The notes under the pieces were generated by a model. The model was given only the letters and a program-made list of their open reading frames with translations, ran no database searches and had not been told where the DNA came from. A program made the translations under genes and the position numbers. A DNA stretch of 16,495 bases, taken from positions 1 through 16,495 of the IMG/VR virus record IMGVR_UViG_2703718827_000004; one strand, 5' to 3'. The stretch is from a virus. Taxonomy: Duplodnaviria; Heunggongvirae; Uroviricota; Caudoviricetes. This document shows, piece after piece, positions 689-12,415 of the stretch. Within the stretch, counting starts at the first letter, position 1. Every line of letters starts with the position of its first letter.

Positions 689-773
689 GTAAGCGTAAAC
701 TGACCGCCGTATGTAGCCATCAGACGAGAATTGGTAACTTAGACGCCCATCTGATATAGACGGACATCTAAGT

Positions 774-1199
774 ATGGAATTACAGGACTGGCGAAAAGAA
801 CCTCGTAAAAACTATTCGAATGAATTCAAACTTCGTATGGTGGAACTGGCATCACAACCTGGAGCTTGTGTTGCACAGATTGCACGTGAAAATGGCGTCA
901 ATGATAATGTTATTTTCAAATGGCTCAGGCTCTGGCAGAACGAAGGGCGTGTTTCGCGGCGTCTTCCGGTAACGACCTCTTCTGACACTGGCGTTGAATT
1001 ATTACCTGTAGAAATAACGCCGGATGAGCAGAAAGAACCTGTGGCGGCCATTGCGCCGTCTTTATCCACTTCCACTCAGACCAGAGTCAGTGCCAGTTCC
1101 TGCAAGGTGGAATTCCGTCACGGTAACATGACGCTGGAAAATCCATCGCCAGAGCTGCTCACAGTGTTGATCCGTGAACTGACCGGGAGGGGAAGATGA
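774..1199 (+). CDS. tnpA: IS66-family accessory protein TnpA (orf1)
   Basis: 141-aa ORF inside the element, first of three co-oriented ORFs. Its stop overlaps the tnpB start (ATGA). Start codon choice is uncertain because the upstream RBS is weak. Confidence 0.8.
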   Translation: MELQDWRKEPRKNYSNEFKLRMVELASQPGACVAQIARENGVNDNVIFKWLRLWQNEGRVSRRLPVTTSSDTGVELLPVEITPDEQKEPVAAIAPSLSTSTQTRVSASSCKVEFRHGNMTLENPSPELLTVLIRELTGRGR

Positions 1200-1546
1200 T
1201 CTCACTCCCATCAGGTACCCGTATCTGGCTCGTTGCCGGCGTTACCGATATGCGTAAATCCTTCAACGGACTGGGAGAACAGGTACAACATGTGCTGAAT
1301 GATAATCCCTTCTCCGGTCACCTGTTTATCTTCCGTGGCCGACGGGGTGACACCGTCAAAATTCTTTGGGCTGATGCTGATGGTCTGTGCCTGTTCACCA
1401 AACGCCTGGAGGAAGGCCAGTTTATCTGGCCTGCGGTACGTGACGGCAAGGTATCCATTACCCGCTCGCAACTGGCAATGCTCCTCGATAAGCTGGACTG
1501 GCGTCAGCCAAAAACATCCAGCCGTAACTCACTGACAATGTTGTAA
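1196..1546 (+). CDS. tnpB: IS66-family Orf2 protein TnpB
   Basis: 116-aa ORF beginning MISLPSGTRIWLVAGVTDMRKSFNGL, the characteristic IS66 Orf2 N-terminus. Strong GGGAGGGGAAG RBS; translationally coupled to tnpA through an ATGA overlap. Confidence 0.9.
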   Translation: MISLPSGTRIWLVAGVTDMRKSFNGLGEQVQHVLNDNPFSGHLFIFRGRRGDTVKILWADADGLCLFTKRLEEGQFIWPAVRDGKVSITRSQLAMLLDKLDWRQPKTSSRNSLTML

Positions 1547-1576
1547 AAAACTCCTGACCGCATTATAAAAACGGTC

Positions 1577-3190
1577 ATGAGTCAGAAATACCTCATTCGC
1601 ATCGCAGAGCTGGAAAGGTTGCTCTCTGAGCAGGCTGAAGCCCTCCGTCAGAAAGACCAGCAACTGAGTCTGGTTGAAGAGACGGAAGCCTTCCTGCGCT
1701 CTGCACTGACACGTGTCGAAGAAAAGATCGAAGAAGATGAACGGGAAATAGAACATCTGCGGGCTCAGATAGAAAAACTGCGCCGGATGCTGTTCGGTAC
1801 CCGTTCTGAAAAACTGCGTCGTGAAGTTGAACTGGCTGAGGCTCTGCTGAAACAACGTGAACAGGACAGCGATCGTTACAGTGGGCGGGAAGACGATCCT
1901 CAGGTTCCCCGCCAGTTGCGACAGTCGCGCCATCGTCGTCCGTTACCGGCACACCTTCCCCGTGAAATACACCGCCTGGAGCCAGAAGAAAGCTGTTGCC
2001 CGGAGTGTGGCGGTGAGCTGGATTATCTGGGGGAAGTCAGCGCTGAACAGCTGGAACTGGTGAGCAGTGCCCTGAAAGTGATCCGCACAGAACGGGTAAA
2101 AAAAGCCTGTACAAAATGTGACTGTATTGTTGAAGCACCGGCGCCGTCCCGCCCGGTAGAGCGTGGTATCGCGGGCCCCGGATTACTTGCCCGCGTGTTA
2201 ACGGGAAAATACTGCGAACATCTGCCACTGTATCGTCAGAGTGAAATCTTTGCCCGCCAGGGTGTCGAACTGAGCCGGGCCTTACTCTCCAACTGGGTTG
2301 ACGCGTGCTGCCAGTTAATGACACCGGTGAATGATGCCCTGTACCGTTATGTAATGAACACCCGCAAGGTTCACACTGATGACACACCGGTAAAGGTACT
2401 GGCACCGGGTCAGAAAAAGGCGAAAACAGGGCGTATCTGGACGTATGTCCGGGATGATCGCAATGTGGGTTCGTCATCTCCTCCAGCGGTCTGGTTCGCG
2501 TACTCGCCGAACCGGCAGGGGAAACACCCGGAGCAACACCTCCGCCCCTTCCGGGGTATCCTGCAGGCGGATGCGTTCACAGGTTACGACAGGTTGTTCA
2601 GTGCAGAACGTGAAGGTGGTGCACTGACAGAAGTTGCGTGCTGGGCCCATGCCCGGCGAAAAATCCACGATGTATACATCAGCAGCAAAAGTGCGACGGC
2701 AGAAGAAGCCCTGAAGCGAATCAGTGAACTGTACGCCATCGAGGATGAAATACGGGGATTACCGGAGTCAGAGCGTCTTGCCGTCAGGCAGCAGCGAAGC
2801 AAAGTGTTACTGACGTCGCTGCATGAATGGATGGTGGAGAAGAATGGTACGCTGTCGAAAAAATCCAGACTGGGCGAAGCGTTCAGCTATGTACTGAATC
2901 AGTGGGATGCCCTCTGTTATTACAGTGATGACGGTCTGGCGGAGGCGGATAATAATGCTGCGGAAAGAGCGCTTCGTGCAGTCTGTCTCGGAAAGAAAAA
3001 CTTTATGTTCTTTGGCAGCGATCACGGCGGCGAGCGTGGAGCACTGTTGTACGGGCTGATCGGCACCTGCCGTCTGAACGGTATCGATCCGGAAGCGTAT
3101 CTGCGCCATATCCTGAGCGTACTGCCGGAATGGCCTTCCAACCGAGTTGATGAACTCCTGCCATGGAACGTAGTACTCACCAATAAATAA
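1577..3190 (+). CDS. tnpC: IS66-family transposase TnpC (orf3)
   Basis: 537-aa ORF with an N-terminal coiled-coil/leucine-zipper-like region (LRAQIEKLRRMLFG), a zinc-finger-like CxxC...CxxC (CCPECGG...CTKCDC) and a DDE-type catalytic region. Size and order match IS66-family transposases. Confidence 0.9.
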   Translation: MSQKYLIRIAELERLLSEQAEALRQKDQQLSLVEETEAFLRSALTRVEEKIEEDEREIEHLRAQIEKLRRMLFGTRSEKLRREVELAEALLKQREQDSDRYSGREDDPQVPRQLRQSRHRRPLPAHLPREIHRLEPEESCCPECGGELDYLGEVSAEQLELVSSALKVIRTERVKKACTKCDCIVEAPAPSRPVERGIAGPGLLARVLTGKYCEHLPLYRQSEIFARQGVELSRALLSNWVDACCQLMTPVNDALYRYVMNTRKVHTDDTPVKVLAPGQKKAKTGRIWTYVRDDRNVGSSSPPAVWFAYSPNRQGKHPEQHLRPFRGILQADAFTGYDRLFSAEREGGALTEVACWAHARRKIHDVYISSKSATAEEALKRISELYAIEDEIRGLPESERLAVRQQRSKVLLTSLHEWMVEKNGTLSKKSRLGEAFSYVLNQWDALCYYSDDGLAEADNNAAERALRAVCLGKKNFMFFGSDHGGERGALLYGLIGTCRLNGIDPEAYLRHILSVLPEWPSNRVDELLPWNVVLTNK

Positions 3191-3220
3191 GCGTCAATAC
3201 GGTGCTCCGTTGACGCTTAC

Positions 3221-3228
3221 GAATTTCC
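3221..3228. repeat. Right copy of 8-bp target-site duplication GAATTTCC flanking the IS66-family element
   Basis: Identical to 681-688; immediately follows the right inverted repeat ending at 3220. Confidence 0.7.
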
Positions 3229-3579
3229 TCAGGTGTTGCGTCATCGTCCACTTCGAATACATCCTCAAAATCTCCACCAGCTATTCCCGTTTCAATAATA
3301 ATTTTGAACTTTCGCATTTCACTACCGCCCTTTCGGGCGGCCTCCTGATGTTCTGAGGGTGCAGAAATCCATCCGGTTAAGGATTAAATTTTATTTACAG
3401 AACTGAATTTAATTATTCAGATATACGTATCTGTAGCCTTACGAATCTACTCACTGGATGCCTCTTTCATAAAAATAATCCAGTGGGTTTTATCGTTTTT
3501 TCCCTGTTCGTTGACAGATAACAGGTTTTCTGTCTGTCAGTGCCAGAATCTGGCTTACTGGTATTTGCGTTTCATTCCA

Positions 3580-3936
3580 TTAAAAAATCAGAACGCCGTG
3601 CGGCCTCAACACCCGAAAGGCTTCTTTAAATCTCTGTCGCGAATCATCACGCCAGGCATCTTTATTCAGCCGTCCATATTTCTTTCCCATCCAGGCGTTA
3701 TCACCAACACTCTCAAGATGCGGAGGGTCTAATACAACCATCGAAAAAGATGCGTCTGCAAATGATAATGCACGAAAATCTGCGATAATGTCAGGGCTGA
3801 TAATCAAGCGTCTCCCATTGCGTAATGTGTATCCTTCTTTTCTGATATCGCTGAATATCGCCCGTTCGTCAGACTTATCGAACCAGAACATGCGGCTGCC
3901 ACAGCACATATCAAGAATGGTTGCCGGTGCACTCAC
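3580..3936 (-). CDS. Putative SAM-dependent amino-group (N6-adenine/N4-cytosine type) DNA methyltransferase, short form that is probably C-terminally truncated
   Basis: 118-aa ORF with a SAM-binding motif I-like ILDMCCGSRMFW near the N-terminus and a motif IV-like VLDPPH (D/N-PP-Y/F/H class) about 60 residues later. No target-recognition domain follows; all three frames downstream terminate within a few codons. GTG start overlaps the stop of the upstream ORF (GTGA). Confidence 0.5.
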   Translation of the reverse strand: MSAPATILDMCCGSRMFWFDKSDERAIFSDIRKEGYTLRNGRRLIISPDIIADFRALSFADASFSMVVLDPPHLESVGDNAWMGKKYGRLNKDAWRDDSRQRFKEAFRVLRPHGVLIF

Positions 3937-4355
3937 TGCGCCACGTCCTGAAAATTACCCTGATAGAAAGCCAGTATGCGCTGCATAACTTCGCTCTTCC
4001 GGCACTCGCGACAGATTATGTTTAGGCGACTGTCGTAGCGACGTATTTCTCCGTCAGGTGATGACCAGATAAGGTCCGGATCAACCACAGCAGGTTTCTT
4101 CACCTTTGCCCTCGAGAGTTTTTTGCGGGCGTTTTGCCAGTCCTTACGCGCCTGTTCAGAGGGGAATAACCCGTAGCCGGAGTTGTATACATCGCCACTG
4201 GCTACCAGCTCTCTGGCAAGAACGCTCATCAGATATCTAGTCGCACCTGTTTTAGCTTCCAGTTGCCGTAACGTCTCACGGCCGCTCTGGCGCACGAGTT
4301 CCACCACCTGCCATTTAATTTTTTCCCGCTCTTCTTGTGTAAAAACTTTTGCCAC
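3933..4355 (-). CDS. Hypothetical prophage early protein (140 aa), function unknown
   Basis: ORF with GTG start preceded by a strong AAGGGGGA Shine-Dalgarno; co-oriented with and translationally coupled to the downstream methyltransferase ORF. The N-terminal segment TLRQLEAKTGATRYLMSVLARELV is helix-turn-helix-like. No family recognised by inspection. Confidence 0.5.
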   Translation of the reverse strand: MAKVFTQEEREKIKWQVVELVRQSGRETLRQLEAKTGATRYLMSVLARELVASGDVYNSGYGLFPSEQARKDWQNARKKLSRAKVKKPAVVDPDLIWSSPDGEIRRYDSRLNIICRECRKSEVMQRILAFYQGNFQDVAQ

Positions 4356-4395
4356 AAGTCCCCCTTAAAATTACCTCATGACCTGAAATCAACAC

Positions 4396-5361
4396 TTATC
4401 CTCTGAAACCAGGCGGAATTTCTGTATCCGGTTCAGAAATATGATTAACACAACGCTGTACAGGTGAACGTCCCAGGCGGATGACCAGTTCGTCCCATTT
4501 TTCGCGGAGCTTTGACGGGCTCATGATGTTTTTTACCCAGAATGGATCTCGCTGAACCCGACCAAACATTTCGCAAATTTGTCTGTGGCTTCTGCCATCC
4601 AGCATCCGCATTGTGCGCACGTCATTGGCCCAGGCAGTCCAGTTAGGCTCTTTTGGTCGCATGATCTCGCCATCATCACTGGCTGCCTGTTCGTAGAGAC
4701 CCACGATCCGCCCCCAGATCCACTGCGCACACGCCAAATCCTCCCTGCTACCCCACTGGCGTTTTTTCGCACTAAACACAACCGCGTCGGAGTTCCGGGT
4801 TAAAAAATCCTGTTCAGTCGTCTGCGGGTCCGGTTGCGAAGCTTCCGGACGAAAAGTGTTTTTATTCTCTGTAGTAATCTCTGTTGTATTCTCTGTAAGA
4901 TCATCAGGCCATTTTGACCCGATGACATTGGGTCGTTTTGAACCAATGGAGCGTTTCATTTTGACCTCTTCCATCGTGTCATTTTGACCTGATGGAGCGG
5001 CGCATTTTGAACCGATGGATTCGCTCAATTTGCCACCATCTAAAAGCTCGCTCCCATAGTTGATCGTGTAGAAATTGGTCATATCGCGCTTTGATTTATT
5101 GAGCTTTTCACAACGCAAAAGCCCCAGCGTTTTCAGACTTGCAAACGCGCGCTTTAACGTTGACTCTGACCAGAATGGGAACTGTTCCAGCCATTGTTCC
5201 GTTGTGTTATAAATCCAGCGAACACCATCACATTCCATGCCGGAGTTGGTATCTCTCAACCAGTAGTGCAGTTGTTGCAAAACAATGGCTTCGTTTAAGC
5301 CAATTTTCATTGCCAGCTGCGTGTTTATAACCAGTGGGCGTTCAGCAAAAAGAAGGCTCAT
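4396..5361 (-). CDS. Phage replication initiation protein (lambda O-like replisome organiser with DnaT-like C-terminal domain)
   Basis: C-terminus ...VNHISEPDTEIPPGFRG closely matches my recollection of the E. coli DnaT C-terminus (...VNTVSEPDSQIPPGFRG). N-terminal region is wHTH-like. The central region contains direct DNA repeats (iterons) encoding repeated SIGSK/IGSK peptides. Start chosen at the internal Met (MSLLFAERP...), which has a GGATGGA RBS; the longest ORF would begin at 5415. Confidence 0.8.
   Translation of the reverse strand: MSLLFAERPLVINTQLAMKIGLNEAIVLQQLHYWLRDTNSGMECDGVRWIYNTTEQWLEQFPFWSESTLKRAFASLKTLGLLRCEKLNKSKRDMTNFYTINYGSELLDGGKLSESIGSKCAAPSGQNDTMEEVKMKRSIGSKRPNVIGSKWPDDLTENTTEITTENKNTFRPEASQPDPQTTEQDFLTRNSDAVVFSAKKRQWGSREDLACAQWIWGRIVGLYEQAASDDGEIMRPKEPNWTAWANDVRTMRMLDGRSHRQICEMFGRVQRDPFWVKNIMSPSKLREKWDELVIRLGRSPVQRCVNHISEPDTEIPPGFRG
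4867..4902. repeat. Three tandem 12-bp repeats (CTCTGTAGTAAT / CTCTGTTGTATT / CTCTGTAAGATC) adjacent to the iteron array
   Basis: Directly visible tandem repeats; on the coding strand they encode the repeated peptide TENTTEITTENK in the initiator linker region. Confidence 0.55.
4911..5023. repeat. Five direct repeats (iterons), consensus about CATTTTGA(C/A)C(C/T)GATGGAGCG, at 23-24 bp periodicity inside the replication initiator gene: putative prophage origin of replication
   Basis: TTTTGA cores begin at 4912, 4936, 4959, 4982 and 5005. Lambda-type origins also sit inside the O gene as iteron arrays. Confidence 0.6.
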
Positions 5362-5863
5362 AATTCCATCCAGCTTTTTGTTGGTATTGCTGTCGATACG
5401 CAAGTTTGAAAGCAATTGCTTTTTCTATAAGTTCGTCAGTTTCACGATCCACTACGGCAGGATCAGCAAAAAGCAGTCCGGACTCCACCACATCGCCATA
5501 TTCTTTGTTTAACCCGGCGATCATGCACGTGATGCTTTTTCCGTCAGTAATTTCACGATACAACCTGAAATCATTAATCCGGATAGCCTCCATAATTGCA
5601 GGCACTAGCGCCGTGAACTTTTCACGCTTATCCCTGGTGTCGATAGCCTTCCAGCGTTCAAATATCTTCACTCGATTAACGCCAAGCGCTCGCTGATCAA
5701 TCGCGCCACCTTCATATGTGACACGCTGAACATCGATGTTCGGGCGCTCTTTCAAAGCCCAGAATGCTTCAGTGATTAATATCGTCGCCTGCTCCTGTGT
5801 CATTCCTGGTCGACATATCCAGGCATCCAGAGCCTCACGAGCCTGTTCAGGAGTGATTTTCAT
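5342..5863 (-). CDS. Hypothetical prophage early protein (173 aa) in the cII/YdaT-like position between the cro-like gene and the replication gene
   Basis: ORF co-oriented with dicC and the replication gene; overlaps dicC by 17 nt and the replication gene by 20 nt, suggesting coupling. Start uncertain (alternative Met at 5803). Family assignment is positional only. Confidence 0.5.
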   Translation of the reverse strand: MKITPEQAREALDAWICRPGMTQEQATILITEAFWALKERPNIDVQRVTYEGGAIDQRALGVNRVKIFERWKAIDTRDKREKFTALVPAIMEAIRINDFRLYREITDGKSITCMIAGLNKEYGDVVESGLLFADPAVVDRETDELIEKAIAFKLAYRQQYQQKAGWNYEPSFC

Positions 5864-6077
5864 TGTTCAACCGCCCCGCCCGCTTCGTCTTACGATATTC
5901 ATCATAAACTTTGGGATCATACTGAAGCTCCCCGCCAGATGCCTCCTGTAGACGCATCGCGCGACCTTCGGGAACTAAATCCCCTTTCCAGCTATAAAGC
6001 GAAGCCAAACGAATACCTGCTGCTTGTGCAAGTTTTGTTTTTGAACCGAAATACAAAAGAGCGTCAGTTTTAAGCAT
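5847..6077 (-). CDS. dicC: Cro-like transcriptional regulator DicC
   Basis: 76-aa protein MLKTDALLYFGSKTKLAQAAGIRLASLYSWKGDLVPEGRAMRLQEASGG... matches my recollection of E. coli DicC; divergent from dicA with a short operator-containing spacer. Confidence 0.85.
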   Translation of the reverse strand: MLKTDALLYFGSKTKLAQAAGIRLASLYSWKGDLVPEGRAMRLQEASGGELQYDPKVYDEYRKTKRAGRLNNENHS

Positions 6078-6160
6078 TTAAAACACCTTTATTGTTAGTC
6101 ATAACTAACAAGATAGATGTTAACAAAAACATAGTCAATACGATTTAGCATTAGCTAACT
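6078..6160. promoter_or_regulatory. dicC-dicA divergent promoter/operator region (immunity switch)
   Basis: 83-bp spacer containing a perfect inverted repeat TTGTTAGT-CATA-ACTAACAA (6092-6111) and a second TTAGCATTAGCTAA element with a self-complementary TTAGCTAA octamer (6144-6158), sitting between divergent start codons. Confidence 0.6.
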
Positions 6161-6568
6161 ATGGAAACAAAAAATTTAACTATCGGCGAACGCATCAGGT
6201 ATCGTCGGAAAAACCTCAAACACACCCAAAGGTCTCTTGCTAAAGCCCTGAAAATCTCCCATGTGTCTGTATCACAATGGGAACGGGGTGATAGTGAACC
6301 TACAGGGAAGAACCTTTTTGCCCTCAGCAAAGTATTGCAATGCTCACCAACATGGATTCTATTTGGCGATGAAGACAAGCAACCAACACCACCTGTTGAG
6401 AAGCCAGTTGCCTTATCCCCCAAAGAACTAGAGCTCCTTGAGCTGTTTAATGCACTGCCAGAATCAGAACAGGATACCCAGCTCGCCGAAATGCGAGCTC
6501 GAGTAAAAAACTTCAATAAACTCTTTGAAGAATTACTAAAAGCCCGTCAGCGGACAAATAAAAGATAA
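6161..6568 (+). CDS. dicA: CI/C2-like HTH (XRE-family) repressor DicA
   Basis: 135-aa protein METKNLTIGERIRYRRKNLKHTQRSLAKALKISHVSVSQWERGDSEPTGKNLFALSKVL...; XRE-type HTH; matches my recollection of E. coli DicA. Confidence 0.9.
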   Translation: METKNLTIGERIRYRRKNLKHTQRSLAKALKISHVSVSQWERGDSEPTGKNLFALSKVLQCSPTWILFGDEDKQPTPPVEKPVALSPKELELLELFNALPESEQDTQLAEMRARVKNFNKLFEELLKARQRTNKR

Positions 6569-6600
6569 CATCATCAATGAGTTATCTTTTACCACATCAA

Positions 6601-6660
6601 TTATGTTAGCTATAGCATACAAAATCACTTGACCGATATGTTAGTCATGGCTAATCTTGT
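6601..6660 (+). promoter_or_regulatory. Putative promoter/operator of the ydfABC-dicF-dicB operon
   Basis: TTGACC (6629-6634), a 17-nt spacer, then TAATCT (6652-6657). The spacer contains TTAGTCATGGCTAA, an imperfect copy of the intergenic operator palindrome; a palindromic GCTATAGC lies at 6609-6616. Confidence 0.45.
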
Positions 6661-6734
6661 TTGCATCAACACACCGCACGGTGTTCTCAGCAAACAGTTC
6701 CGCTACCCCAGCGTTAAGGGGAAATGAGGTCAGC

Positions 6735-6890
6735 ATGGATACTATCGATCTTGGCAACAACGAATCTCTGGTGTACGGCGTGTTTCCAAACCAGGACGGC
6801 ACGTTCACCGCAATGACGTATACCAAAAGCAAAACGTTTAAAACCGAAAATGGTGCCCGTCGCTGGCTGGAAAGAAACTCAGGTGAGTGA
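6735..6890 (+). CDS. ydfA: Small prophage protein YdfA (51 aa)
   Basis: MDTIDLGNNESLVYGVFPNQDGTFTAMTYTKSKTFKTENGARRWLERNSGE; GAGG RBS 5 nt upstream; internal start within the longer six-frame ORF 6657-6890. Confidence 0.8.
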   Translation: MDTIDLGNNESLVYGVFPNQDGTFTAMTYTKSKTFKTENGARRWLERNSGE

Positions 6891-6891
6891 T

Positions 6892-7020
6892 ATGGATTTC
6901 GACACAATCATGGAAAAGGCTTACGAAGAATACTTCGAAGGCCTTGCCGAAGGCGAAGAAGCTCTCAGCTTCAGTGAGTTTAAACAGGCGCTTTCCAGTT
7001 CGGCAAAATCTAACGGCTGA
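6892..7020 (+). CDS. ydfB: Small prophage protein YdfB (42 aa)
   Basis: Not in the ORF track (under 60 aa). Manual translation from ATG at 6892 gives MDFDTIMEKAYEEYFEGLAEGEEALSFSEFKQALSSSAKSNG, stop TGA at 7018-7020. AGGTGAG RBS; starts 1 nt after the ydfA stop. Confidence 0.7.
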   Translation: MDFDTIMEKAYEEYFEGLAEGEEALSFSEFKQALSSSAKSNG

Positions 7021-7049
7021 TAAGCGAAACAGCACCGCGAGGAATCAGT

Positions 7050-7268
7050 ATGCAGAAACGAGAACCCGTCATCATCGCGCCAGACTATACCGATGATGAA
7101 CTTTATGAGTGGATGCGCCAGAAAATTAATGCAGCGCAGGATCTGAAATGGGCTAATGAAGCCAGGGCTAAGCAGGCTGAAAATCTGTCCGCTCTGGAGC
7201 AGGATATCACCAATCTGGAAAAAGCAGCGGCATTAAGCATTGCCAGAATGATTACATACCCGCGTTAG
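7050..7268 (+). CDS. ydfC: Small prophage protein YdfC (72 aa)
   Basis: MQKREPVIIAPDYTDDELYEWMRQKINAAQDLKWANEARAKQAENLSALEQDITNLEKAAALSIARMITYPR; AGGAA RBS. Confidence 0.8.
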   Translation: MQKREPVIIAPDYTDDELYEWMRQKINAAQDLKWANEARAKQAENLSALEQDITNLEKAAALSIARMITYPR

Positions 7269-7608
7269 TAGCTAATCAACAAAGCTAAGGTTAGTAATTA
7301 AGGAGTTCTCCACGGGTGAGGTGGAGTGCGTGCGCCGGACACGGGTGCGCATCCGGAACTGACAGTTTACTGAAAGGATATTTCCCTGAAAAGTCAGACC
7401 ATAACGCGAAAGCGCACGGCGAGGTAGCTGGTTCATAGATAGCCTGTCGTTAAATTTTCGTCGACCGTGCGCTTCCGGTTGTGGCAACCCGCGAAATGGC
7501 GCGGCGGTAAGTATGGCGGGGTTATTCCTTCCCCGTTGAGGACACCGGGTTGTCAGGTTGACCATACGCTTAAGTGACAACCCCGCTGCAACGCCCTCTG
7601 TTATCAAT

Positions 7609-7661
7609 TTTCTGGTGACGTTTGGCGGTATCAGTTTTACTCCGTGACTGCTCTGCCGCCC
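7609..7661 (+). ncRNA. dicF: DicF small regulatory RNA (antisense inhibitor of ftsZ translation), processed from the ydfABC-dicB operon transcript
   Basis: TTTCTGGTGACGTTTGGCGGTATCAGTTTTACTCCGTGACTGCTCTGCCGCCC followed by TTTTT matches my recollection of the 53-nt DicF RNA; ends in a GC stem plus U-run. Confidence 0.75.
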
Positions 7662-7666
7662 TTTTT
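7624..7666 (+). terminator. Rho-independent terminator-like hairpin forming the DicF 3' end (GGCGG...CCGCC followed by TTTTT)
   Basis: GGCGG (7624-7628) pairs with CCGCC (7656-7660), followed by T5 (7662-7666); an inner CAGT...ACTG stem is possible. Confidence 0.6.
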
Positions 7667-7835
7667 AAAGTGAATTTTGTGATGTGGTGAATGCGGCTGA
7701 GCGCACGCGGAACAGTTAAAACCCAAAACAGTGTTATGGGTGGATTCTCTGTATCCGGCGTTAATTGTTAACTGGTTAACGTCACCTGGAGGCACCAGGC
7801 ACTGCATCACAAAATTCATTGTTGAGGACGCGATA

Positions 7836-8024
7836 ATGAAAACGTTATTACCAAACGTTAATACGTCTGAAGGTTGTTTTGAAATTGGTGTCACTATCAG
7901 TAACCCAGTATTTACTGAAGATGCCATTAACAAGAGAAAACAAGAACGGGAGCTATTAAATAAAATATGCATTGTTTCAATGCTGGCTCGTTTACGTCTG
8001 ATGCCAAAAGGATGTGCACAATGA
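7836..8024 (+). CDS. dicB: Cell-division inhibitor DicB (62 aa)
   Basis: MKTLLPNVNTSEGCFEIGVTISNPVFTEDAINKRKQERELLNKICIVSMLARLRLMPKGCAQ; GAGGA RBS; internal start of six-frame ORF 7731-8024. Confidence 0.85.
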   Translation: MKTLLPNVNTSEGCFEIGVTISNPVFTEDAINKRKQERELLNKICIVSMLARLRLMPKGCAQ

Positions 8025-8212
8025 ATTCAGCATTTGTGCTTGTTCTGACAGTTTTTCTTGTTTCCGGAGAGCCAGTTGATATTGCAGTCAGTGTTCACAG
8101 GACAATGCAGGAGTGTATGACTGCAGCAACCGAACAGAAAATTCCCGGTAACTGTTACCCGGTCGATAAAGTTATTCACCAGGATAATATCGAAATCCCG
8201 GCAGGTCTTTAA
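8021..8212 (+). CDS. ydfD: Small prophage lysis-associated membrane protein YdfD (63 aa)
   Basis: MNSAFVLVLTVFLVSGEPVDIAVSVHRTMQ... with a hydrophobic N-terminus; start ATG overlaps the dicB stop (ATGA at 8021-8024). Confidence 0.8.
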   Translation: MNSAFVLVLTVFLVSGEPVDIAVSVHRTMQECMTAATEQKIPGNCYPVDKVIHQDNIEIPAGL

Positions 8213-8304
8213 AACAGTTCCGTAATAAATATCCGGTTTCATTCTTATATGCCAGCAATGGCAGGGATTTGTTCATCCTTAAATCTGTCATGAGGTTAAA
8301 ACAA

Positions 8305-10776
8305 ATGAGTAAAGTCTTTATTTGCGCCGCTATTCCTGACGAACTGGCAACAAGGGAAGAAGGCGCTGTGGCTGTAGCCACAGCCATTGAAGCTGGCGAC
8401 GAACGCCGTGCTCGAGCAAAATTTCACTGGCAATTCCTGGAACATTATCCGGCTGCTCAGGACTGCGCTTATAAATTTATTGTCTGCGAGGATAAACCTG
8501 GCATACCCCGCCCTGCCCTCGATTCATGGGATGCTGAATATATGCAGGAAAACCGCTGGGATGAGGAGTCTGCTTCTTTTGTCCCGGTTGAGACTGAATC
8601 CGATCCGATGAACGTCACTTTTGACAAGCTGGCCCCTGAAGTACAGAACGCTGTCATGGTTAAGTTCGACACATGTGAAAACATCACCGTTGATATGGTT
8701 ATTAGCGCACAGGAATTGTTGCAGGAAGACATGGCAACATTCGACGGACATATCGTTGAAGCGTTGATGAAAATGCCAGAAGTTAACGCCATGTATCCGG
8801 AGCTTAAGTTGCACGCCATTGGGTGGGTTAAGCATAAATGTATTCCTGGTGCTAAATGGCCCGAAATTCAGGCAGAGATGCGCATCTGGAAAAAACGTCG
8901 CGAAGGTGAACGCAAGGAAACCGGAAAATACACGTCTGTTGTTGATCTCGCCCGCGCCAGAGCCAATCAACAGTACACTGAAAATTCAACAGGAAAAATC
9001 AGCCCGGTCATTGCTGCCATTCATCGCGAATACAAGCAGACATGGAAAACACTGGATGACGAACTGGCCTACGCTCTCTGGCCTAGTGATGTGGATGCCG
9101 GAAACATTGACGGCAGCATCCATCGCTGGGCAAAAAAAGAAGTTATCGACAACGACCGCGAAGACTGGAAGCGTATCTCGGCATCAATGCGCAAACAGCC
9201 TGATGCCCTTCGCTACGACCGCCAAACTATTTTTGGCCTTGTCCGTGAGCGTCCGATCGACATTCACAAAGATCCCGTAGCACTGAACAAATATATCTGC
9301 GAATACCTGACGACAAAGGGCGTGTTTGAGAATGAAGAAACAGACCTGGGCACTGTTGATGTTCTCCAGTCATCAGAAACACAAACTGATGCAGTGGAAA
9401 CTGAGGTATCTGATATCCCAAAAAATGAAACCGCGCCGGAAGCTGAACCATCTGTAGAGCGTGAGGGGCCGTTCTATTTCCTCTTCGCAGATAAGGACGG
9501 AGAAAAATACGGTCGCGCAAACAAACTCTCTGGTCTGGATAAGGCACTGGCTGCTGGCGCCACTGAAATCACAAAAGAAGAATATTTTGCCCGAAAAAAT
9601 GGCACATACACGGGCTTACCGCAAAATGTAGATACCGCTGAAGATTCAGAACAACCAGAGCCGATAAAAGTTACCGCTGACGAAGTAAACAAAATTATGC
9701 AGGCAGCCAATATCAGCCAGCCTGACGCCGATAAGTTGCTTGCTGCATCACGTGGTGAATTTGTTGAAGGGATTAGTGACCCGAATGATCCGAAATGGGT
9801 TAAGGGGCTCCAGACCCGCGATTCTGTGAACCAGAACCAGCATGAATCGGAACGGAACTACCAAAAAGCGGAACAAAACAGTCCAAATGCGTTACAAAAC
9901 GAGCCAGAAACGAAACAGCCTGAACCAGTAGCGCAACAGGAAGTGGAAAAAGTCTGCACCGCCTGCGGTCAGACCGGCGGCGGCAACTGCCCTGATTGTG
10001 GCGCGGTGATGGGCGACGCAACATACCAAGAAACATTCGATGAAGAGTATCAGGTTGAAGTTCAGGAAGATGATCCGGAGGAAATGGAAGGCGCTGAACA
10101 TCCACACAAGGAGAACACTGGCGGCAATCAGCATCACAATAGCGATAATGAAACTGGCGAGACGGCAGATCACCCAATTAAGGTGAACGGTCATCACGAA
10201 ATCACATCCACCAGCAGGACGTGTGACCATCTAATGATCGACCTTGAAACCATGGGAAAAAATCCTGATGCCCCGATCATCTCAATAGGTGCAATATTTT
10301 TCGATCCGCAAACCGGAGATATGGGACCGGAATTTAGTAAGACTATCGATCTGGAAACTGCTGGCGGAGTCATTGATCGGGACACCATTAAATGGTGGCT
10401 TAAGCAATCACGCGAAGCGCAATCTGCCATTATGACCGATGAAATCCCGTTAGATGATGCACTGTTACAATTGCGAGAATTTATCGACGAAAACTCCGGT
10501 GAATTTTTTGTTCAGGTTTGGGGAAATGGAGCCAACTTCGACAACACGATTTTGCGCCGTTCATACGAACGGCAGGGGATCCCCTGCCCGTGGCGTTACT
10601 ACAACGATCGCGATGTACGCACAATCGTTGAGCTGGGGAAAGCCATAGACTTCGATGCCAGAACGGCTATTCCATTCGAAGGTGAGCGCCATAATGCACT
10701 TGATGACGCCCGTTACCAGGCAAAATACGTTTCAGTTATCTGGCAAAAACTGATCCCGAGTCAGGCTGATTCTTAA
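8305..10776 (+). CDS. ydfE: Prophage exonuclease, full-length YdfE-type: large N-terminal region of unknown function, RecE-like internal segment, CxxC...CxxC zinc ribbon, acidic linker, C-terminal DEDDh (DnaQ-like) 3'-5' exonuclease domain
   Basis: Start at MSKVFICAAIPDE (GAGG RBS 10 nt upstream) rather than the ORF-track start at 8269. The segment ADKLLAASRGEFVEGISDPNDPKWVKGLQTRD resembles a RecE (exonuclease VIII) internal segment from memory. Zinc ribbon CTACGQTGGGNCPDCG. DEDDh motifs: MIDLETMG (Exo I), VWGNGANFDNTIL (Exo II), HNALDDARYQAK (Exo III). Confidence 0.85.
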   Translation: MSKVFICAAIPDELATREEGAVAVATAIEAGDERRARAKFHWQFLEHYPAAQDCAYKFIVCEDKPGIPRPALDSWDAEYMQENRWDEESASFVPVETESDPMNVTFDKLAPEVQNAVMVKFDTCENITVDMVISAQELLQEDMATFDGHIVEALMKMPEVNAMYPELKLHAIGWVKHKCIPGAKWPEIQAEMRIWKKRREGERKETGKYTSVVDLARARANQQYTENSTGKISPVIAAIHREYKQTWKTLDDELAYALWPSDVDAGNIDGSIHRWAKKEVIDNDREDWKRISASMRKQPDALRYDRQTIFGLVRERPIDIHKDPVALNKYICEYLTTKGVFENEETDLGTVDVLQSSETQTDAVETEVSDIPKNETAPEAEPSVEREGPFYFLFADKDGEKYGRANKLSGLDKALAAGATEITKEEYFARKNGTYTGLPQNVDTAEDSEQPEPIKVTADEVNKIMQAANISQPDADKLLAASRGEFVEGISDPNDPKWVKGLQTRDSVNQNQHESERNYQKAEQNSPNALQNEPETKQPEPVAQQEVEKVCTACGQTGGGNCPDCGAVMGDATYQETFDEEYQVEVQEDDPEEMEGAEHPHKENTGGNQHHNSDNETGETADHPIKVNGHHEITSTSRTCDHLMIDLETMGKNPDAPIISIGAIFFDPQTGDMGPEFSKTIDLETAGGVIDRDTIKWWLKQSREAQSAIMTDEIPLDDALLQLREFIDENSGEFFVQVWGNGANFDNTILRRSYERQGIPCPWRYYNDRDVRTIVELGKAIDFDARTAIPFEGERHNALDDARYQAKYVSVIWQKLIPSQADS

Positions 10777-10787
10777 TGTTCAACTGT

Positions 10788-10819
10788 CGCCGGTTGTGAC
10801 TGGTATTCTGCAACCGGCG
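10788..10819 (+). other. GC-rich hairpin (CGCCGGTTG / CAACCGGCG, 14-nt loop) in the exonuclease-xis spacer; possible RNA processing or attenuation structure
   Basis: 9-bp perfect inverted repeat 12 nt after the exonuclease stop; not followed by a U-run, so not a canonical intrinsic terminator. Confidence 0.3.
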
Positions 10820-10848
10820 CTCGTCTGATGTAAGAGATAAAGAAATCG

Positions 10849-11100
10849 ATGAGCGAAGTAATCATGATTGTCTCTCCCGGCAAATGGGTATCCGAAGAGC
10901 AGTTAATTGCGCTGAAAGGAATAAAAAAAGGTACGTTAAAAAAGGCCCGGGAAAAATCGTTTATGGAAGGAAGGGAATATAAGCATGTCGCTCATGACGG
11001 TATGCCATGGGATAACAGTCCATGCTTTTACAACCTGGAAGAAATTGATCGCTGGATTGAGCGCCAGGCATCAGCGAGACCAAGACGTCATCTTACTTGA
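10849..11100 (+). CDS. Prophage excisionase-like protein (Xis)
   Basis: 83-aa ORF immediately upstream of and co-oriented with the integrase; the GKWVSEEQLIALKGIKKGTLKKAR segment is typical of lambdoid prophage excisionase-like proteins. Start codon uncertain (alternative ATG at 10864). Confidence 0.7.
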   Translation: MSEVIMIVSPGKWVSEEQLIALKGIKKGTLKKAREKSFMEGREYKHVAHDGMPWDNSPCFYNLEEIDRWIERQASARPRRHLT

Positions 11101-11134
11101 CTAAAAGCCACACTAACTAATGAGAGAAGTTGAA

Positions 11135-12415
11135 ATGAAATATCCGACAGGCGTGGAAAACCATGGAGGGAAATTACGTATCTGGTTTGTTTATAAAGAC
11201 GTAAGAGTCAGGGAAAATCTGGGGGTTCCTGACACAGCAAAAAACAGGCGCGTTGCAGGTGAACTACGCTCCTCTGTTTGTTACGCAATAAAAACTGGTG
11301 TTTTCGACTATGCAAAACAGTTTCCCTCCTCACGCAATCTGGAAAAATTTGGTGAGGCCCGACAAGATTTAACCATAAAAGAACTGGCTGAAAAATTTCT
11401 GGCACTGAAAGAAACTGAAGTCGCCAAAACATCACTCAACACATACCGTGCCGTCATCAAAAATATCCTGAGCATAATCGGTGAAAAAAATCTTGCCTCA
11501 TCGATTAATAAAGAAAAATTACTGGAGGTTCGTAAAGAGTTACTGACTGGATACCAGATCCCCAAAAGTAACTATATTGTTACACAACCAGGGAGATCGG
11601 CTGTAACTGTAAATAATTACATGACAAATCTTAACGCCGTGTTCCAGTTTGGTGTTGATAACGGTTACCTGGCAGATAATCCGTTTAAGGGGATCTCGCC
11701 ATTAAAGGAATCAAGAACCATTCCGGATCCTCTTTCGCGGGAAGAATTTATCCGTCTTATCGATGCGTGCAGAAATCAGCAAGCAAAAAATTTATGGTGT
11801 GTTTCTGTTTATACTGGAGTTCGCCCTGGTGAGCTGTGTGCACTTGGATGGGAGGACATAGATCTGAAAAATGGAACAATGATGATCAGGAGAAATTTAG
11901 CAAAAGACCGTTTCACGGTACCAAAAACACAGGCGGGAACCAATCGGGTCATTCATCTTATTAAGCCAGCAATCGACGCTCTCCGGAGTCAGATGACATT
12001 AACGAGACTGAGCAAAGAGCATATCATTGATGTTCACCTCAGAGAGTATGGCAGAACAGAAAAACAAAAATGCACCTTTGTTTTTCAACCTGAAGTGTCA
12101 GCGAGAGTAAAAAATTATGGTGACCATTTTACCGTTGACTCAATAAGGCAGATGTGGGACGCAGCGATAAAACGTGCCGGACTCCGCCATCGAAAATCAT
12201 ATCAGTCGAGACATACTTATGCCTGCTGGTCGCTGACAGCTGGTGCTAACCCGGCATTTATAGCAAACCAGATGGGCCATGCAGATGCGCAAATGGTATT
12301 TCAGGTATACGGAAAATGGATGTCTGAAAACAATAATGCACAGGTAGCTTTGTTAAATACACAGTTAAGCGAGTTTGCCCCAACCATGCCCCATAACGAA
12401 GCAATGAAAAATTAA
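11135..12415 (+). CDS. intQ: Tyrosine-type site-specific integrase, apparently intact
   Basis: 426 aa from MKYPTGVENHGGKLRIWF (purine-rich GAGAGAAG RBS). N-terminus resembles the Rac-type prophage integrase from memory; C-terminal catalytic region with RHTYACWSL...GHADAQMVFQVYGKW (R, HxxR and Y signature). Position next to rspB corresponds to intQ. Confidence 0.88.
   Translation: MKYPTGVENHGGKLRIWFVYKDVRVRENLGVPDTAKNRRVAGELRSSVCYAIKTGVFDYAKQFPSSRNLEKFGEARQDLTIKELAEKFLALKETEVAKTSLNTYRAVIKNILSIIGEKNLASSINKEKLLEVRKELLTGYQIPKSNYIVTQPGRSAVTVNNYMTNLNAVFQFGVDNGYLADNPFKGISPLKESRTIPDPLSREEFIRLIDACRNQQAKNLWCVSVYTGVRPGELCALGWEDIDLKNGTMMIRRNLAKDRFTVPKTQAGTNRVIHLIKPAIDALRSQMTLTRLSKEHIIDVHLREYGRTEKQKCTFVFQPEVSARVKNYGDHFTVDSIRQMWDAAIKRAGLRHRKSYQSRHTYACWSLTAGANPAFIANQMGHADAQMVFQVYGKWMSENNNAQVALLNTQLSEFAPTMPHNEAMKN

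What the first reader, a model, noticed from the sequence alone, without database searches (positions are those of the whole stretch)
4867..5023. Iteron array embedded in the replication-initiator gene: putative prophage origin
Five direct repeats (about CATTTTGAMCYGATGGAGCG) recur at a regular 23-24 bp spacing at 4911-5023, next to three tandem 12-bp repeats at 4867-4902. All lie inside the linker region of the O-like initiator, whose C-terminus is DnaT-like. This matches the lambda arrangement of ori inside gene O, so the element may retain a cis-acting origin even though the rest of the prophage is degraded. A protein that couples iteron binding to a DnaT-like domain suggests a PriA/DnaT-pathway loading mechanism rather than a lambda P-type one.
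Basis: seen in the sequence. Interest (0 to 1): 0.5.

Follow-up and report, generated by a model that had tools for sequence, protein, structure and literature searches.

The report
Prophage replication origin inside initiator gene
The repeats are real DNA-level signals that mark a lambda-style replication origin inside the initiator gene of a Qin-type E. coli prophage. The initiator has no lambda P-type partner gene and instead ends in a short peptide copied from the host restart protein DnaT.

Summary
Window 4904-5038 holds six 19-bp dyad-symmetric iterons (consensus TCGGGTCAAAATGACCCGA) spaced 23-24 bp, so they are read in all three codon phases. Three 12-nt repeats (TACAGAGAnTAC, 4862-4898) follow, in the least stable DNA of the gene. 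Both lie in the predicted disordered linker of a 321-aa initiator (4396-5361, minus strand).

Among 58 close variants, third codon positions vary at 22% in this segment against 62% elsewhere. About 60 distant homologues, from Gammaproteobacteria to Bacillota, keep the same layout, with symmetric changes in both iteron half-sites.

"DnaT-like" holds only for the last ~20 residues. The C-terminal domain proper is lambda-O-like. No P, DnaC-like or helicase gene follows. A sister prophage with the same initiator but a different tail carries a lambda-P gene at that position. Across phages, the DnaT-type tail goes with a DnaC-like loader or with none, never with P or a DnaB helicase.

The origin is a new variant of a known kind. 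The tail as a portable docking peptide for host helicase loading is the interesting, untested lead.

The parts
4396..5361 (-). Replication initiator gene (321 aa from ATG 5361). It has an N-terminal winged-helix domain, a disordered linker that carries the origin, a lambda-O-like C-terminal domain and a DnaT-like tail.
   Evidence: PHROG 391 'replication initiation O-like', E 1e-91, full length. No Pfam hit, and 'hypothetical protein' in RefSeq. 100% identical to the gene annotated 'DNA replication protein O' in phage PhiR42_1.
5041..5340 (-). N-terminal winged-helix (wHTH) domain, residues ~8-107; presumed iteron-binding module.
   Evidence: The AF2 model shows helix-turn-helix plus a beta-hairpin wing at pLDDT 60-84. 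All Foldseek hits are weak (none at E <= 0.001). The best is a plasmid Rep-DNA complex, 5kbj (E 0.03, prob 1.0); the rest are wHTH regulators and the DnaD N-domain. The domain is conserved from Enterobacterales to Staphylococcus and Bacillus phages.
4904..5038 (-). Array of six 19-bp iterons: 5020-5038, 4997-5015, 4974-4992, 4951-4969, 4928-4946, 4904-4922. Consensus TCGGGTCAAAATGACCCGA, an 8+8 inverted repeat around AAA. Spacing 23/23/23/23/24 bp.
   Evidence: The units fall in codon phases 2/1/0/2/1/1. The unit next to the 12-nt repeats (4904-4922) is the best conserved, with 1 variable site in 58 variants.
4851..4900 (-). Putative DNA-unwinding region: three 12-nt repeats TACAGAGAnTAC (4862-4898) plus an A-rich run.
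   Evidence: GC is 30%, the minimum in the gene. The region holds the least stable 40-mers of the gene: -44.3 kcal/mol at 4859, and -44.6 at 4860 (least-stable ~1% of the window), against a window mean of -54.3, sd 4.0. The DNA motif is fixed at synonymous sites across phyla: Glu GAG 80/81 inside against 49% outside, Thr ACA 71% against 17%. The same 40 nt occur at 97.5% identity in an otherwise dissimilar Stx-phage O gene.
4480..4764 (-). C-terminal domain (residues ~200-294), homologous to the C-terminal domain of lambda O.
   Evidence: BLASTP against lambda O: 34% identity over 148 aa, E 1e-26. Modelled as helical, pLDDT 58-83.
4399..4458 (-). DnaT-like C-terminal tail (residues 302-321, QRCVNHISEPDTEIPPGFRG); presumed docking peptide for host helicase-loading proteins.
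   Evidence: It aligns to the last 20-21 residues of DnaT chains 2ru8, 6aep and 9zbt and to NF002770 positions 160-179 only. DNA homology with the P-carrying sister prophage L173 stops at 4471, just before the tail. I315, P316, F319, R320 and G321 are near-invariant and G318 is invariant in the family.
3933..4355 (-). DUF977 / Ren-like gene directly after the initiator, in the position lambda gives to P. No helicase loader or helicase gene is present.
   Evidence: Pfam DUF977 E 5e-29; PHROG 142 'Ren-like exclusion protein'. In L173 a Phage_lambda_P gene lies between the initiator and DUF977.
5342..6138 (-). Upstream early operon that transcribes the initiator and origin: promoter-like site 6138-6110, dicC/cro-like gene 5847-6077, YdaT/cII-like gene 5342-5863.
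   Evidence: Pfam P22_Cro and YdaT_toxin; PHROG 163. One sigma-70-like site. Annotation of the near-identical ATCC 8739 locus (99.9% over window 3221-13409).

Best explanation
This is the vegetative (theta-type) replication origin of a Qin/mEp460-type lambdoid prophage. It is built like ori-lambda and lies inside its own initiator gene.

Proposed mechanism, by step:
1. The early rightward operon (dicC/cro-like, ydaT/cII-like, initiator) is transcribed after derepression and makes the 321-aa initiator. The gene order is shown; the regulation is inferred.
2. Dimers of the N-terminal winged-helix domain bind the six dyad-symmetric 19-bp iterons at 4904-5038 and build an O-some-like nucleoprotein complex. 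This is inferred from dyad symmetry, phasing, DNA-level conservation and half-site covariation.
3. Strain from that complex opens the adjacent least-stable segment (4851-4900). That segment consists of three TACAGAGAnTAC repeats whose DNA sequence, not their peptide, is conserved. Low stability and conservation are shown; unwinding is inferred.
4. The lambda-O-like C-terminal domain with its 20-residue DnaT-like tail brings host DnaB to the opened DNA without a phage P protein. My preferred partner for the tail is host DnaC (the DnaB-DnaC complex). PriA is the alternative. This step is inferred from gene neighbourhoods and two natural tail swaps.

Because the origin overlaps a coding region, the encoded peptide (residues ~109-175) is a disordered linker that tolerates the DNA constraint.
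For: - DNA-level, not peptide-level, repeat: 23-bp spacing, three codon phases.
- Phased array far beyond chance: lag-23 autocorrelation 0.56, 0/5000 shuffles.
- Synonymous-site constraint: third positions variable in 13/60 origin sites against 158/256 elsewhere, Fisher p 2e-8, while first and second positions are not more conserved (an earlier subset).
- Conserved architecture: N-domain, then 3-7 units at 21-24 nt, then 12-nt repeats, in ~60 homologues from Enterobacterales, Pseudomonas, Acinetobacter, Campylobacterota and Bacillota.
- Symmetric half-site covariation: GGTCA..TGACC, GGGCA..TGCCC, GGACA..TGTCC, GATCA..TGATC, TGTTCA..TGAACA.
- N-domain fold is winged-helix, with a Rep-DNA complex as the best (weak, E 0.03) hit.
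- The AT-rich, least-stable tract lies directly after the iterons in the direction of transcription, as in lambda (architecture of lambdoid origins as described in PMC7466680).
- The C-domain is homologous to that of lambda O, and the alignment places the last iteron and the AT-rich tract at the same position in both proteins.
- Module in deposited phage genomes: HannyBb 98%, mEp460_ev081 97%. No loader or helicase is annotated between integrase and Q in HannyBb.
- P-independence: sister locus L173 has the same immunity region and initiator (81% nt identity up to window 4471) but another tail (DWNSADGWEDVL) plus a Phage_lambda_P gene.
- Tail and loader type: 0 of 26 tail-bearing loci have a DnaB_C, IstB-like, lambda_P or primase-helicase gene downstream, against 32 of 59 tail-less loci. 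In other phages the tail is followed within 2-7 nt by a DnaC paralogue (48-49% identical to Salmonella DnaC in the two I compared, Rac YdaV and Gifsy-2), the layout of host dnaT-dnaC, or by no loader.
- Second swap: POCJ13 (DnaT-type tail, DnaC-like loader) against Stx2_14040/L107 (same C-domain, SGFSEQDYG..NW tail, IstB-like loader plus DnaB helicase).
Against: - There is no experimental evidence. Binding, unwinding and replication are all inferred.
- The close variants are related and recombining, so the Fisher test overstates independence. Low diversity in the segment could partly reflect recent recombination at a module junction.
- Within the array, the 13-bp cores are not less variable than the spacers (24/78 against 2/21 variable sites). 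I cannot separate contact positions from spacing constraint.
- The 12-nt repeat is only moderately AT-rich (67% AT), and its cross-phylum sequence conservation is more than simple meltability needs. It may be a specific binding site rather than, or as well as, an unwinding element.
- The AF2 model is of modest quality (mean pLDDT 59) and all Foldseek E-values are weak.
- The partner of the tail is unknown. The 2026 preprimosome structure paper states that DnaB/DnaC recruitment is unresolved, and it describes a hydrophobic DnaT-CTD/PriA interface without listing residues. PriA docking therefore remains possible.
- In this particular window an IS66 element and a truncated methyltransferase lie downstream, so the prophage as a whole may not be inducible.
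Confidence: 0.78

Rival explanations
1. The iterons are real initiator-binding sites, but in this cryptic prophage their maintained role is not initiation. They would titrate or handcuff the initiator, autoregulate it, or exclude superinfecting phages that use the same replication type.
For: Iteron arrays in plasmids serve control as well as initiation (general knowledge). Plasmids carrying part of the lambda replication region block plating of rep-lambda phages (abstract of PMC3349717, listed). The module is found in 2797 of 5426 complete E. coli genomes, many probably in defective prophages. The window's prophage carries an IS66 insertion.
Against: The same array with the adjacent low-stability tract is kept in deposited phage genomes that encode no other replication function I could find. 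The layout matches the origin architecture of lambda position for position. Exclusion would be an added use, not an alternative to the origin.
Confidence: 0.08
2. The DNA-level conservation, above all of the 12-nt repeats, reflects their role as a recombination linker. A conserved junction would let N-terminal (specificity) and C-terminal (loader-contact) modules be exchanged between phages, with no function in unwinding.
For: The 40-nt stretch is 97.5% identical in an Stx-phage O gene that otherwise shares no detectable DNA similarity. Klebsiella phages share only the N-domain plus origin part (query 468-909). N-domains, C-domains and tails are clearly shuffled.
Against: Homologous recombination needs identity, not a particular sequence. 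Yet the same motif TACAGAGAnTAC, with fixed GAG and ACA codons, is kept in Bacillota, Campylobacterota and Gammaproteobacteria, whose phages are unlikely to recombine with each other. It always lies next to the iterons and is the least stable DNA of the gene. Both roles can coexist.
Confidence: 0.07
3. The repeats only mirror a repeated peptide in the initiator linker (IGSK...), with no cis-acting DNA role.
For: IGSK occurs three times in the linker, and TE[NI]TTE is a repeated peptide.
Against: Adjacent iterons are 23 bp apart and are read as IGSK, SGQN and EVKM. Third positions are three times less variable there than elsewhere, while first and second positions are not more conserved. The linker is predicted disordered. 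Codon choice in the TE repeats is fixed.
Confidence: 0.01

Closest known systems
ori-lambda within gene O of phage lambda, with 4 iterons (6 in Stx phages P27 and 933W)
   Same: - The origin lies in the middle of the initiator gene, in the stretch between the DNA-binding N-domain and the C-domain.
- Iterons are 18-19 bp, dyad-symmetric around an A-tract, and spaced 20-24 bp.
- An AT-rich tract follows directly, in the direction of transcription from the pR-type operon.
[quoted passage not shown]
- As in lambda, the unit nearest the AT-rich tract is the best conserved.

   Different: - The N-terminal domain shows no detectable sequence similarity to that of lambda O (no Pfam Phage_rep_O hit, no BLAST match).
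- The iteron sequence is different.
- The tract after the iterons is a triple 12-nt repeat conserved across phyla, which lambda lacks.
- No P gene follows.
- The initiator ends in a DnaT-type tail instead of lambda O's ...TDWIYGVDL.
Rac YdaU-YdaV, Gifsy-2 O-DnaC-like, POCJ13 gp16-gp17 (phage initiator followed by a DnaC paralogue)
   Same: The initiator carries the same C-terminal tail (VNxxSxPDxxIPxGFRG). POCJ13's tail is identical to the window's over 18 residues. All are early-operon replication modules of enterobacterial temperate phages.
   Different: Those phages encode their own DnaC-like loader 2-7 nt after the tail; this module encodes none. Their N-terminal and central domains belong to other families. 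YdaU, Gifsy-2 O and POCJ13 gp16 lack the ACAGAGA repeats.
E. coli / Salmonella DnaT (primosomal protein I) and the dnaT-dnaC operon
   Same: The last ~17-20 residues are shared (70% identity). In the host, as in Rac and Gifsy, the tail's stop codon lies 2-7 nt before a dnaC-type gene.
   Different: There is no similarity to the DnaT N-domain, acidic linker or three-helix-bundle ssDNA-binding domain. NCBIfam scores 16 bits against a cut-off of 201. Other phage initiators (SPN1S, BUCT711) carry the whole DnaT C-domain (66% identity in SPN1S, the one I compared), but this one does not.
RepA_N-type plasmid initiators of Gram-positive bacteria (e.g. pSK41 RepA) and DnaD-like phage initiators
   Same: They have a winged-helix N-domain. 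The best fold hit is a Rep-DNA complex (5kbj), with the DnaD N-domain (2v79) further down the list. From my own knowledge of the RepA_N literature, not tested here: their origin iterons also lie inside the rep gene, between the N- and C-terminal domains.
   Different: The similarity is at fold level only (E 0.03, 14% identity). The C-domains and hosts differ.

Membership tests
Lambda-type origin embedded in the initiator gene | Array of at least 3-4 direct repeats of ~18-19 bp, each with internal dyad symmetry, spaced about two helical turns apart | tested here: met
   Six 19-mers at 23-24 bp with an 8+8 inverted-repeat consensus. Autocorrelation reached by 0/5000 shuffles.
Lambda-type origin embedded in the initiator gene | Array lies in the part of the initiator gene that encodes the inter-domain linker | tested here: met
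   Iterons and 12-mers encode residues ~108-167. AF2 pLDDT is below 50 for residues 109-175, between two folded domains. The alignment to lambda O puts both origins at the same place.
Lambda-type origin embedded in the initiator gene | AT-rich, easily melted tract directly after the iterons | tested here: met
   GC 30% at 4860-4899. The least stable 40-mers of the gene lie there, in the least-stable ~1% of the window.
Lambda-type origin embedded in the initiator gene | Repeats are selected as DNA, independently of the encoded peptide | tested here: met
   Three codon phases. Third-position variability 22% against 62%. Fixed codons in the 12-mers.
Lambda-type origin embedded in the initiator gene | Cognate initiator binds the repeats | not testable with these tools
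   Indirect only: wHTH fold and symmetric covariation of half-sites across lineages. EMSA or footprinting is needed.
Lambda-type origin embedded in the initiator gene | Fragment supports initiator-dependent replication in cis | not testable with these tools
   No experiment was possible. The module is the only recognisable replication function in HannyBb and mEp460_4F5.
Lambda O-P replication module | Helicase-loader gene P immediately downstream of the initiator | tested here: not met
   DUF977 follows. No Phage_lambda_P, IstB/DnaC or DnaB_C gene lies in the 4.4 kb downstream within the window, and none was found within 1.5 kb downstream in any of 26 tail-bearing loci. The sister locus L173 does have P.
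Lambda O protein family | Homology of the C-terminal domain | tested here: met
   34% identity over 148 aa, E 1e-26.
Lambda O protein family | Lambda-O-type N-terminal iteron-binding domain (Pfam Phage_rep_O) | tested here: not met
   No Pfam hit even at E <= 10. BLASTP finds no N-terminal similarity.
DnaT (primosomal protein I) | Full-length or C-domain (three-helix bundle) homology to DnaT | tested here: not met
   NF002770 scores 16.2 bits against a cut-off of 201, matching profile positions 160-179 only. PDB DnaT chains align over query residues 301-321 only.
DnaT (primosomal protein I) | C-terminal tail SEPDxxIPPGFRG at the very C-terminus | tested here: met
   16/21 identical to E. coli DnaT and 14/20 to Salmonella DnaT. 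The core IPxGFRG is near-invariant in the family.
PHROG 391 (replication initiation O-like) | Full-length profile match | tested here: met
   E 1.1e-91; residues 17-321 against profile positions 11-298 of 298.
RepA_N / DnaD-like winged-helix initiators | Winged-helix N-domain fold similar to solved Rep/DnaD N-domains | tested here: inconclusive
   Foldseek: 5kbj E 0.03, prob 1.0, TM 0.49; 2v79 E 0.38. The model pLDDT is only 60-84 in this domain.

The most novel reading that the evidence does not exclude
The 17-20-residue tail shared by host DnaT and many enterobacterial phage initiators (VNxxSxPDxxIPxGFRG-COOH) may be a portable docking peptide for the DnaC-type helicase-loading machinery.

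In this prophage it would replace the lambda P protein. An O-type initiator that has bound and opened its own in-gene origin would hand the DNA directly to host DnaB-DnaC.

If so, the same peptide would be the long-sought element by which DnaT recruits DnaB/DnaC during replication restart. The dnaT-dnaC operon would then look like a domesticated phage initiator-loader pair.

A weaker version, that the tail docks on some host restart or loader protein (DnaC, DnaB or PriA) and thereby makes P dispensable, has a probability of about 0.6.
Probability: 0.35. Interest if true: 0.75.

Novelty: new variant of a known kind. Interest (0 to 1): 0.5.

Why it matters
- **Annotation.** The initiator is present in about half of complete E. 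coli genomes, yet RefSeq calls it "hypothetical protein" and Pfam has no domain for it. The origin is not annotated in any record I looked at. Naming both would improve prophage annotation and help predict which "cryptic" prophages can still replicate.
- **A possible new origin element.** The family shows a conserved three-part origin grammar from Gammaproteobacteria to Bacillota: palindromic iterons, a fixed 12-nt repeat, then a module junction. I found no description of the 12-nt repeat in the papers I could search.
- **Helicase loading.** The tail swaps give a natural genetic handle on an open question that the 2026 preprimosome structure paper states explicitly: how the DnaT step recruits DnaB/DnaC. 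A 20-residue peptide that tracks the loader type can be tested with simple binding and truncation experiments.

Tried and rejected
- **Family searches.** Pfam (even at E <= 10) and NCBIfam gave nothing useful for the initiator. Only PHROGs recognised it.
- **Whole-window motif count.** Seven matches against 3.1 expected is not significant for the iteron core, so I replaced it with a phasing test.
- **"DnaT-like domain".** Rejected in favour of "DnaT-like tail"; the C-domain is lambda-O-like.
- **"The tail means no loader at all".** This was my first generalisation, from 0/26 against 32/59 loci. Rac, Gifsy-2, POCJ13, SPN3UB and others showed tail-bearing initiators followed by DnaC paralogues. 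I revised it to [quoted passage not shown].
- **Core against spacer conservation.** This gave no clean separation within the iteron array.
- **Single-linkage clustering of C-domains.** It merged distinct types, so I did not use it for counts.
- **Literature.** Searches for the Qin origin, mEp460 replication, the PPGFRG motif, YdaU/DnaT and the TEITTE/ACAGAGA repeat found nothing specific. The library lacks most subscription journals, so earlier descriptions may exist.
- **Preprimosome paper.** The paper and its supplements do not list the DnaT residues at the PriA interface. The PriA-or-DnaC question stays open.
- **The other periodicity outlier.** The 21-nt period at 9770-9960 in the recE-like gene is an in-frame Q/N/E-rich linker and is unrelated.
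Full report
**1. Where we are**

The window is the left arm of a Qin/Kim-type lambdoid prophage of E. coli, integrated next to rspB.
- Window 3221-13409 is 99.9% identical to E. coli ATCC 8739.
- The features on the map are listed here.
  - An IS66-family insertion at about 689-3220 (tnpA, tnpB, tnpC), absent from ATCC 8739.
  - A truncated methyltransferase (3580-3936, minus strand).
  - DUF977/Ren-like (3933-4355, minus).
  - The initiator (4396-5361, minus).
  - YdaT/cII-like (5342-5863, minus).
  - dicC/cro-like (5847-6077, minus).
  - dicA repressor (6161-6568, plus).
  - DicF RNA (7610-7661).
  - A RecE-like exonuclease (8269-10776).
  - Excisionase and integrase.
  - The host genes rspB and rspA.

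- The initiator gene matches 2797 of 5426 complete E. coli genomes. It is 100% identical in the phage record PhiR42_1 (annotated "DNA replication protein O"), 98% in phage HannyBb and 97% in mEp460_ev081.

**2. The observation**

- On the coding (minus) strand the array is six 19-mers at 5020-5038, 4997-5015, 4974-4992, 4951-4969, 4928-4946 and 4904-4922. The spacing is 23/23/23/23/24 bp. The consensus TCGGGTCAAAATGACCCGA is a perfect 8+8 inverted repeat around AAA.
- Lag-23 autocorrelation is 0.56, against 0.33 +/- 0.025 in dinucleotide shuffles; 0 of 5000 shuffles reach it.
- The three 12-nt repeats (ACAGAGAWTAC at 4862-4896) are also beyond chance: 4 matches in the window against 0.41 expected.
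- The gene start is ATG 5361 (321 aa), not TTG 5415 (339 aa). The N-terminus MSLL... is conserved across phyla, and RefSeq and the phage records use it.

**3. DNA signal or peptide repeat?**

Four results point to a DNA signal.
- Because 23 is not a multiple of three, successive units are read in different phases (IGSK, SGQN, EVKM, IGSK, IGSK).
- In 58 distinct close variants from IMG/VR, third codon positions vary at 13/60 sites in the origin segment against 158/256 elsewhere (odds ratio 0.17, p 2e-8). First and second positions vary at 23% against 15%. The usual codon periodicity of constraint disappears there, which is what selection on the DNA predicts. These variants are related and recombine, so the p-value is indicative only.
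- The encoded residues 109-175 are modelled as disordered (pLDDT ~25), between a folded N-domain and a helical C-domain.
- The iteron next to the 12-mers is the most conserved (1 variable site in 19). [quoted passage not shown]

**4. Comparative anatomy**

The N-terminal domain is widespread in phages of Enterobacterales, Pseudomonas, Vibrio, Staphylococcus, Bacillus and Listeria. I examined eight phage genes and 80 loci from one-genome-per-species contigs.
- About 60 have 3-7 units at 21-24 nt at the same gene position, again in mixed codon phases, followed in many by 2-5 copies of the 12-nt repeat.
- The unit consensus is always a palindrome around CA(A/T)(A/T)(A/T)TG. The flanks change symmetrically between lineages:
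  - GGTCA..TGACC (Escherichia, Citrobacter, Klebsiella)
  - GGGCA..TGCCC (Pantoea, Pseudomonas, PEp14)
  - GGACA..TGTCC (Hafnia yong2, some Pantoea)
  - GATCA..TGATC (Limosilactobacillus)
  - TGTTCA..TGAACA (Anoxybacillus)

- Paired changes in both half-sites are what a dimeric DNA-binding protein co-evolving with its site would produce.
- The AF2 model of the N-domain is a helix-turn-helix with a beta-hairpin wing. All Foldseek hits are weak (none at E <= 0.001). The best is a plasmid Rep-DNA complex (5kbj, E 0.03, prob 1.0), followed by wHTH regulators and the DnaD N-domain.

**5. The 12-nt repeat**

The peptide TE[NIT]TTE could be encoded in many ways, but the DNA is fixed.
- In 28 distinct versions, Glu is GAG in 80/81 cases (49% elsewhere in the same genes) and Thr is ACA in 71% (17% elsewhere). 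This yields TACAGAGAnTAC in Gammaproteobacteria, a Campylobacterota MAG and Bacillota alike.
- In the window it lies in the least stable 40-mers of the gene (about -44.5 kcal/mol against a window mean of -54.3, sd 4.0) and at the GC minimum of 30%.
- The same 40 nt are 97.5% identical in an Stx-phage O gene whose remaining DNA is dissimilar.
- The repeat is absent from lambda O, Gifsy-2 O, YdaU and SPN1S.
- I read it as the unwinding element of this origin family, possibly also a specific (perhaps single-strand) binding site. A role as a recombination linker between modules may coexist.
- I found no description of it in the searchable literature.

**6. Comparison with lambda**

In lambda the four annotated iterons lie at O-gene nt 349-433, followed by the AT-rich tract. 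PMC7466680 describes this architecture for lambdoid phages and notes six iterons in Stx phages.
- BLASTP aligns residues 147-294 of the window protein with residues 135-270 of lambda O (34% identity, E 1e-26). The last iteron and the AT-rich tract therefore fall at equivalent positions, and the C-terminal domains are homologous.
- The N-domains are not detectably similar.
- The gene order cro-like, cII-like, initiator, Ren-like equals the lambda order cro, cII, O, P, ren minus P.

**7. The DnaT-like part and helicase loading**

Similarity to DnaT is confined to residues ~302-321. No loader or helicase gene follows the initiator here, in HannyBb, in mEp460_4F5 or in the Klebsiella phage. Three lines of comparative evidence make the tail the likely determinant of the loading route.

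(a) Among 85 loci of this N-domain family, 26 end in [IVLTA]PxG[FW][RKN], usually within a few residues of the C-terminus. None of the 26 has a DnaB_C helicase, IstB/DnaC-like ATPase, primase-helicase or Phage_lambda_P gene within 1.5 kb downstream. Of the 59 others, 32 do.

(b) Natural swap 1. Protein P0036 (locus L173) sits in the same Qin-type immunity region, and its DNA is 81% identical up to window 4471 (residue 297). Its tail is DWNSADGWEDVL, and a Phage_lambda_P gene is inserted between the initiator and DUF977. Two further loci (L101, L103) end in ...HWNSPEAWENTL and are also followed by lambda-P genes.

(c) A tblastn search with the 21 C-terminal residues of E. coli DnaT against 50,697 phage records gave 49 hits.
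- By their annotations the hits are overwhelmingly replication-initiator genes, plus true dnaT in bacterial contigs filed as phages. A few records are unannotated or carry other labels.
- In the records I opened, the match is the C-terminus of the gene. They span at least four N-domain families.
- In Rac (ydaU-ydaV), vB_EcoS-666R9, Gifsy-2, SPN3UB, POCJ13 and a Klebsiella phage, a DnaC paralogue starts 2-7 nt after the tail's stop codon. This is the layout of host dnaT-dnaC. Rac YdaV and the Gifsy-2 protein, the two I compared, are 48-49% identical to Salmonella DnaC.
- In SPN1S and BUCT711, as in the window, nothing of the kind follows.
- Natural swap 2. POCJ13 gp16 and the Stx2_14040/L107 initiators share a C-domain. 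POCJ13 has the window's tail plus a DnaC-like loader. The others end in SGFSEQDYG..NW and are followed by a more distant IstB-like ATPase plus a DnaB helicase.

The tail, not the C-domain, therefore tracks the loader type. The DnaT-type tail goes with DnaC-type loaders, phage-encoded or, by inference, the host's.

I cannot exclude PriA as the partner. The 2026 preprimosome paper reports a hydrophobic, conserved DnaT-CTD/PriA interface without naming residues, and it states that DnaB/DnaC recruitment remains unknown. Truncating DnaT to residues 84-153 weakens cooperative ssDNA binding (PMC4132743), which is a third possible role.

SPN1S-type initiators carry the entire DnaT C-domain at 66% identity, and YdaU is 31% identical over 98 residues. 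This suggests an evolutionary link between DnaT and phage initiators.

**8. Verdict**

The finding is a correct sequence-only prediction of a lambda-type origin. The origin as such is ordinary in kind. It is a variant in three respects:
- an initiator family with no Pfam model that RefSeq calls "hypothetical";
- a cross-phylum 12-nt repeat as the post-iteron element;
- loss of P, coupled to a DnaT-type tail.

Everything mechanistic is inferred. The decisive experiments are simple and are listed under next steps.

Noticed in passing
window 689-3220: An IS66-family element (tnpA 774-1199, tnpB 1196-1546, tnpC 1577-3190) is inserted relative to E. coli ATCC 8739. It lies just beyond a truncated methyltransferase gene (3580-3936). 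This is the visible sign of decay in this prophage arm.
   Followed up: partly
window 7610-7661 (+): DicF small RNA (Rfam RF00039, 76.7 bits), as expected for a Qin-type dicB operon.
   Followed up: yes
window 9770-9960 (+), inside the recE-like gene 8269-10776: This is the only other strong short-period signal in the window (lag 21, autocorrelation up to 0.59). It is in frame (7 codons) and encodes a Q/N/E-rich low-complexity linker. It looks peptide-level and unrelated to the origin.
   Followed up: partly
L177 (Salmonella phage SPN1S) 1748-2563; L179 (Klebsiella phage BUCT711) 1514-2275: These initiators carry the whole DnaT C-terminal domain. SPN1S residues 179-271 are 66% identical to DnaT residues 87-179 (E 2e-41), and no loader gene follows. 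This hints that DnaT and phage initiators share ancestry.
   Followed up: partly
L180 (Shigella phage POCJ13) 1265-2260, against L003 (Stx2a phage Stx2_14040) 2094-2987 and L107: This is a second natural tail swap. The C-domain is the same. A DnaT-type tail identical to the window's goes with a DnaC-like loader. An SGFSEQDYG..NW tail goes with an IstB-like ATPase plus a DnaB helicase.
   Followed up: partly
L173 4001-5697 (Logan ERR10093472 contig): This is a sister Qin-type prophage. Its initiator has the lambda-O-like C-domain but ends in DWNSADGWEDVL, and a Phage_lambda_P gene follows. Lambda O itself ends in ...TDWIYGVDL. An aromatic/acidic tail ending in L may be the P-contact peptide.
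   Followed up: partly
L093, L094, L141 (MAGs labelled Veillonella parvula, Bacillota bacterium, Collinsella sp.): Their copies of the initiator N-terminal domain are 100% identical to the window's at protein level. L093 and L094 also carry the same tail, and L141 is only a 53-residue contig end. These are almost certainly E. coli prophage DNA mis-binned into the MAGs.
   Followed up: no
window 4396-5415 (-): The mechanical ORF begins at TTG 5415 (339 aa) and overlaps the upstream ydaT-like gene by 74 nt. The conserved start is ATG 5361. Some database entries (P0001, P0002, P0004; 448 aa, with a YdaT Pfam domain) appear to fuse the ydaT-like gene and the initiator.
   Followed up: no
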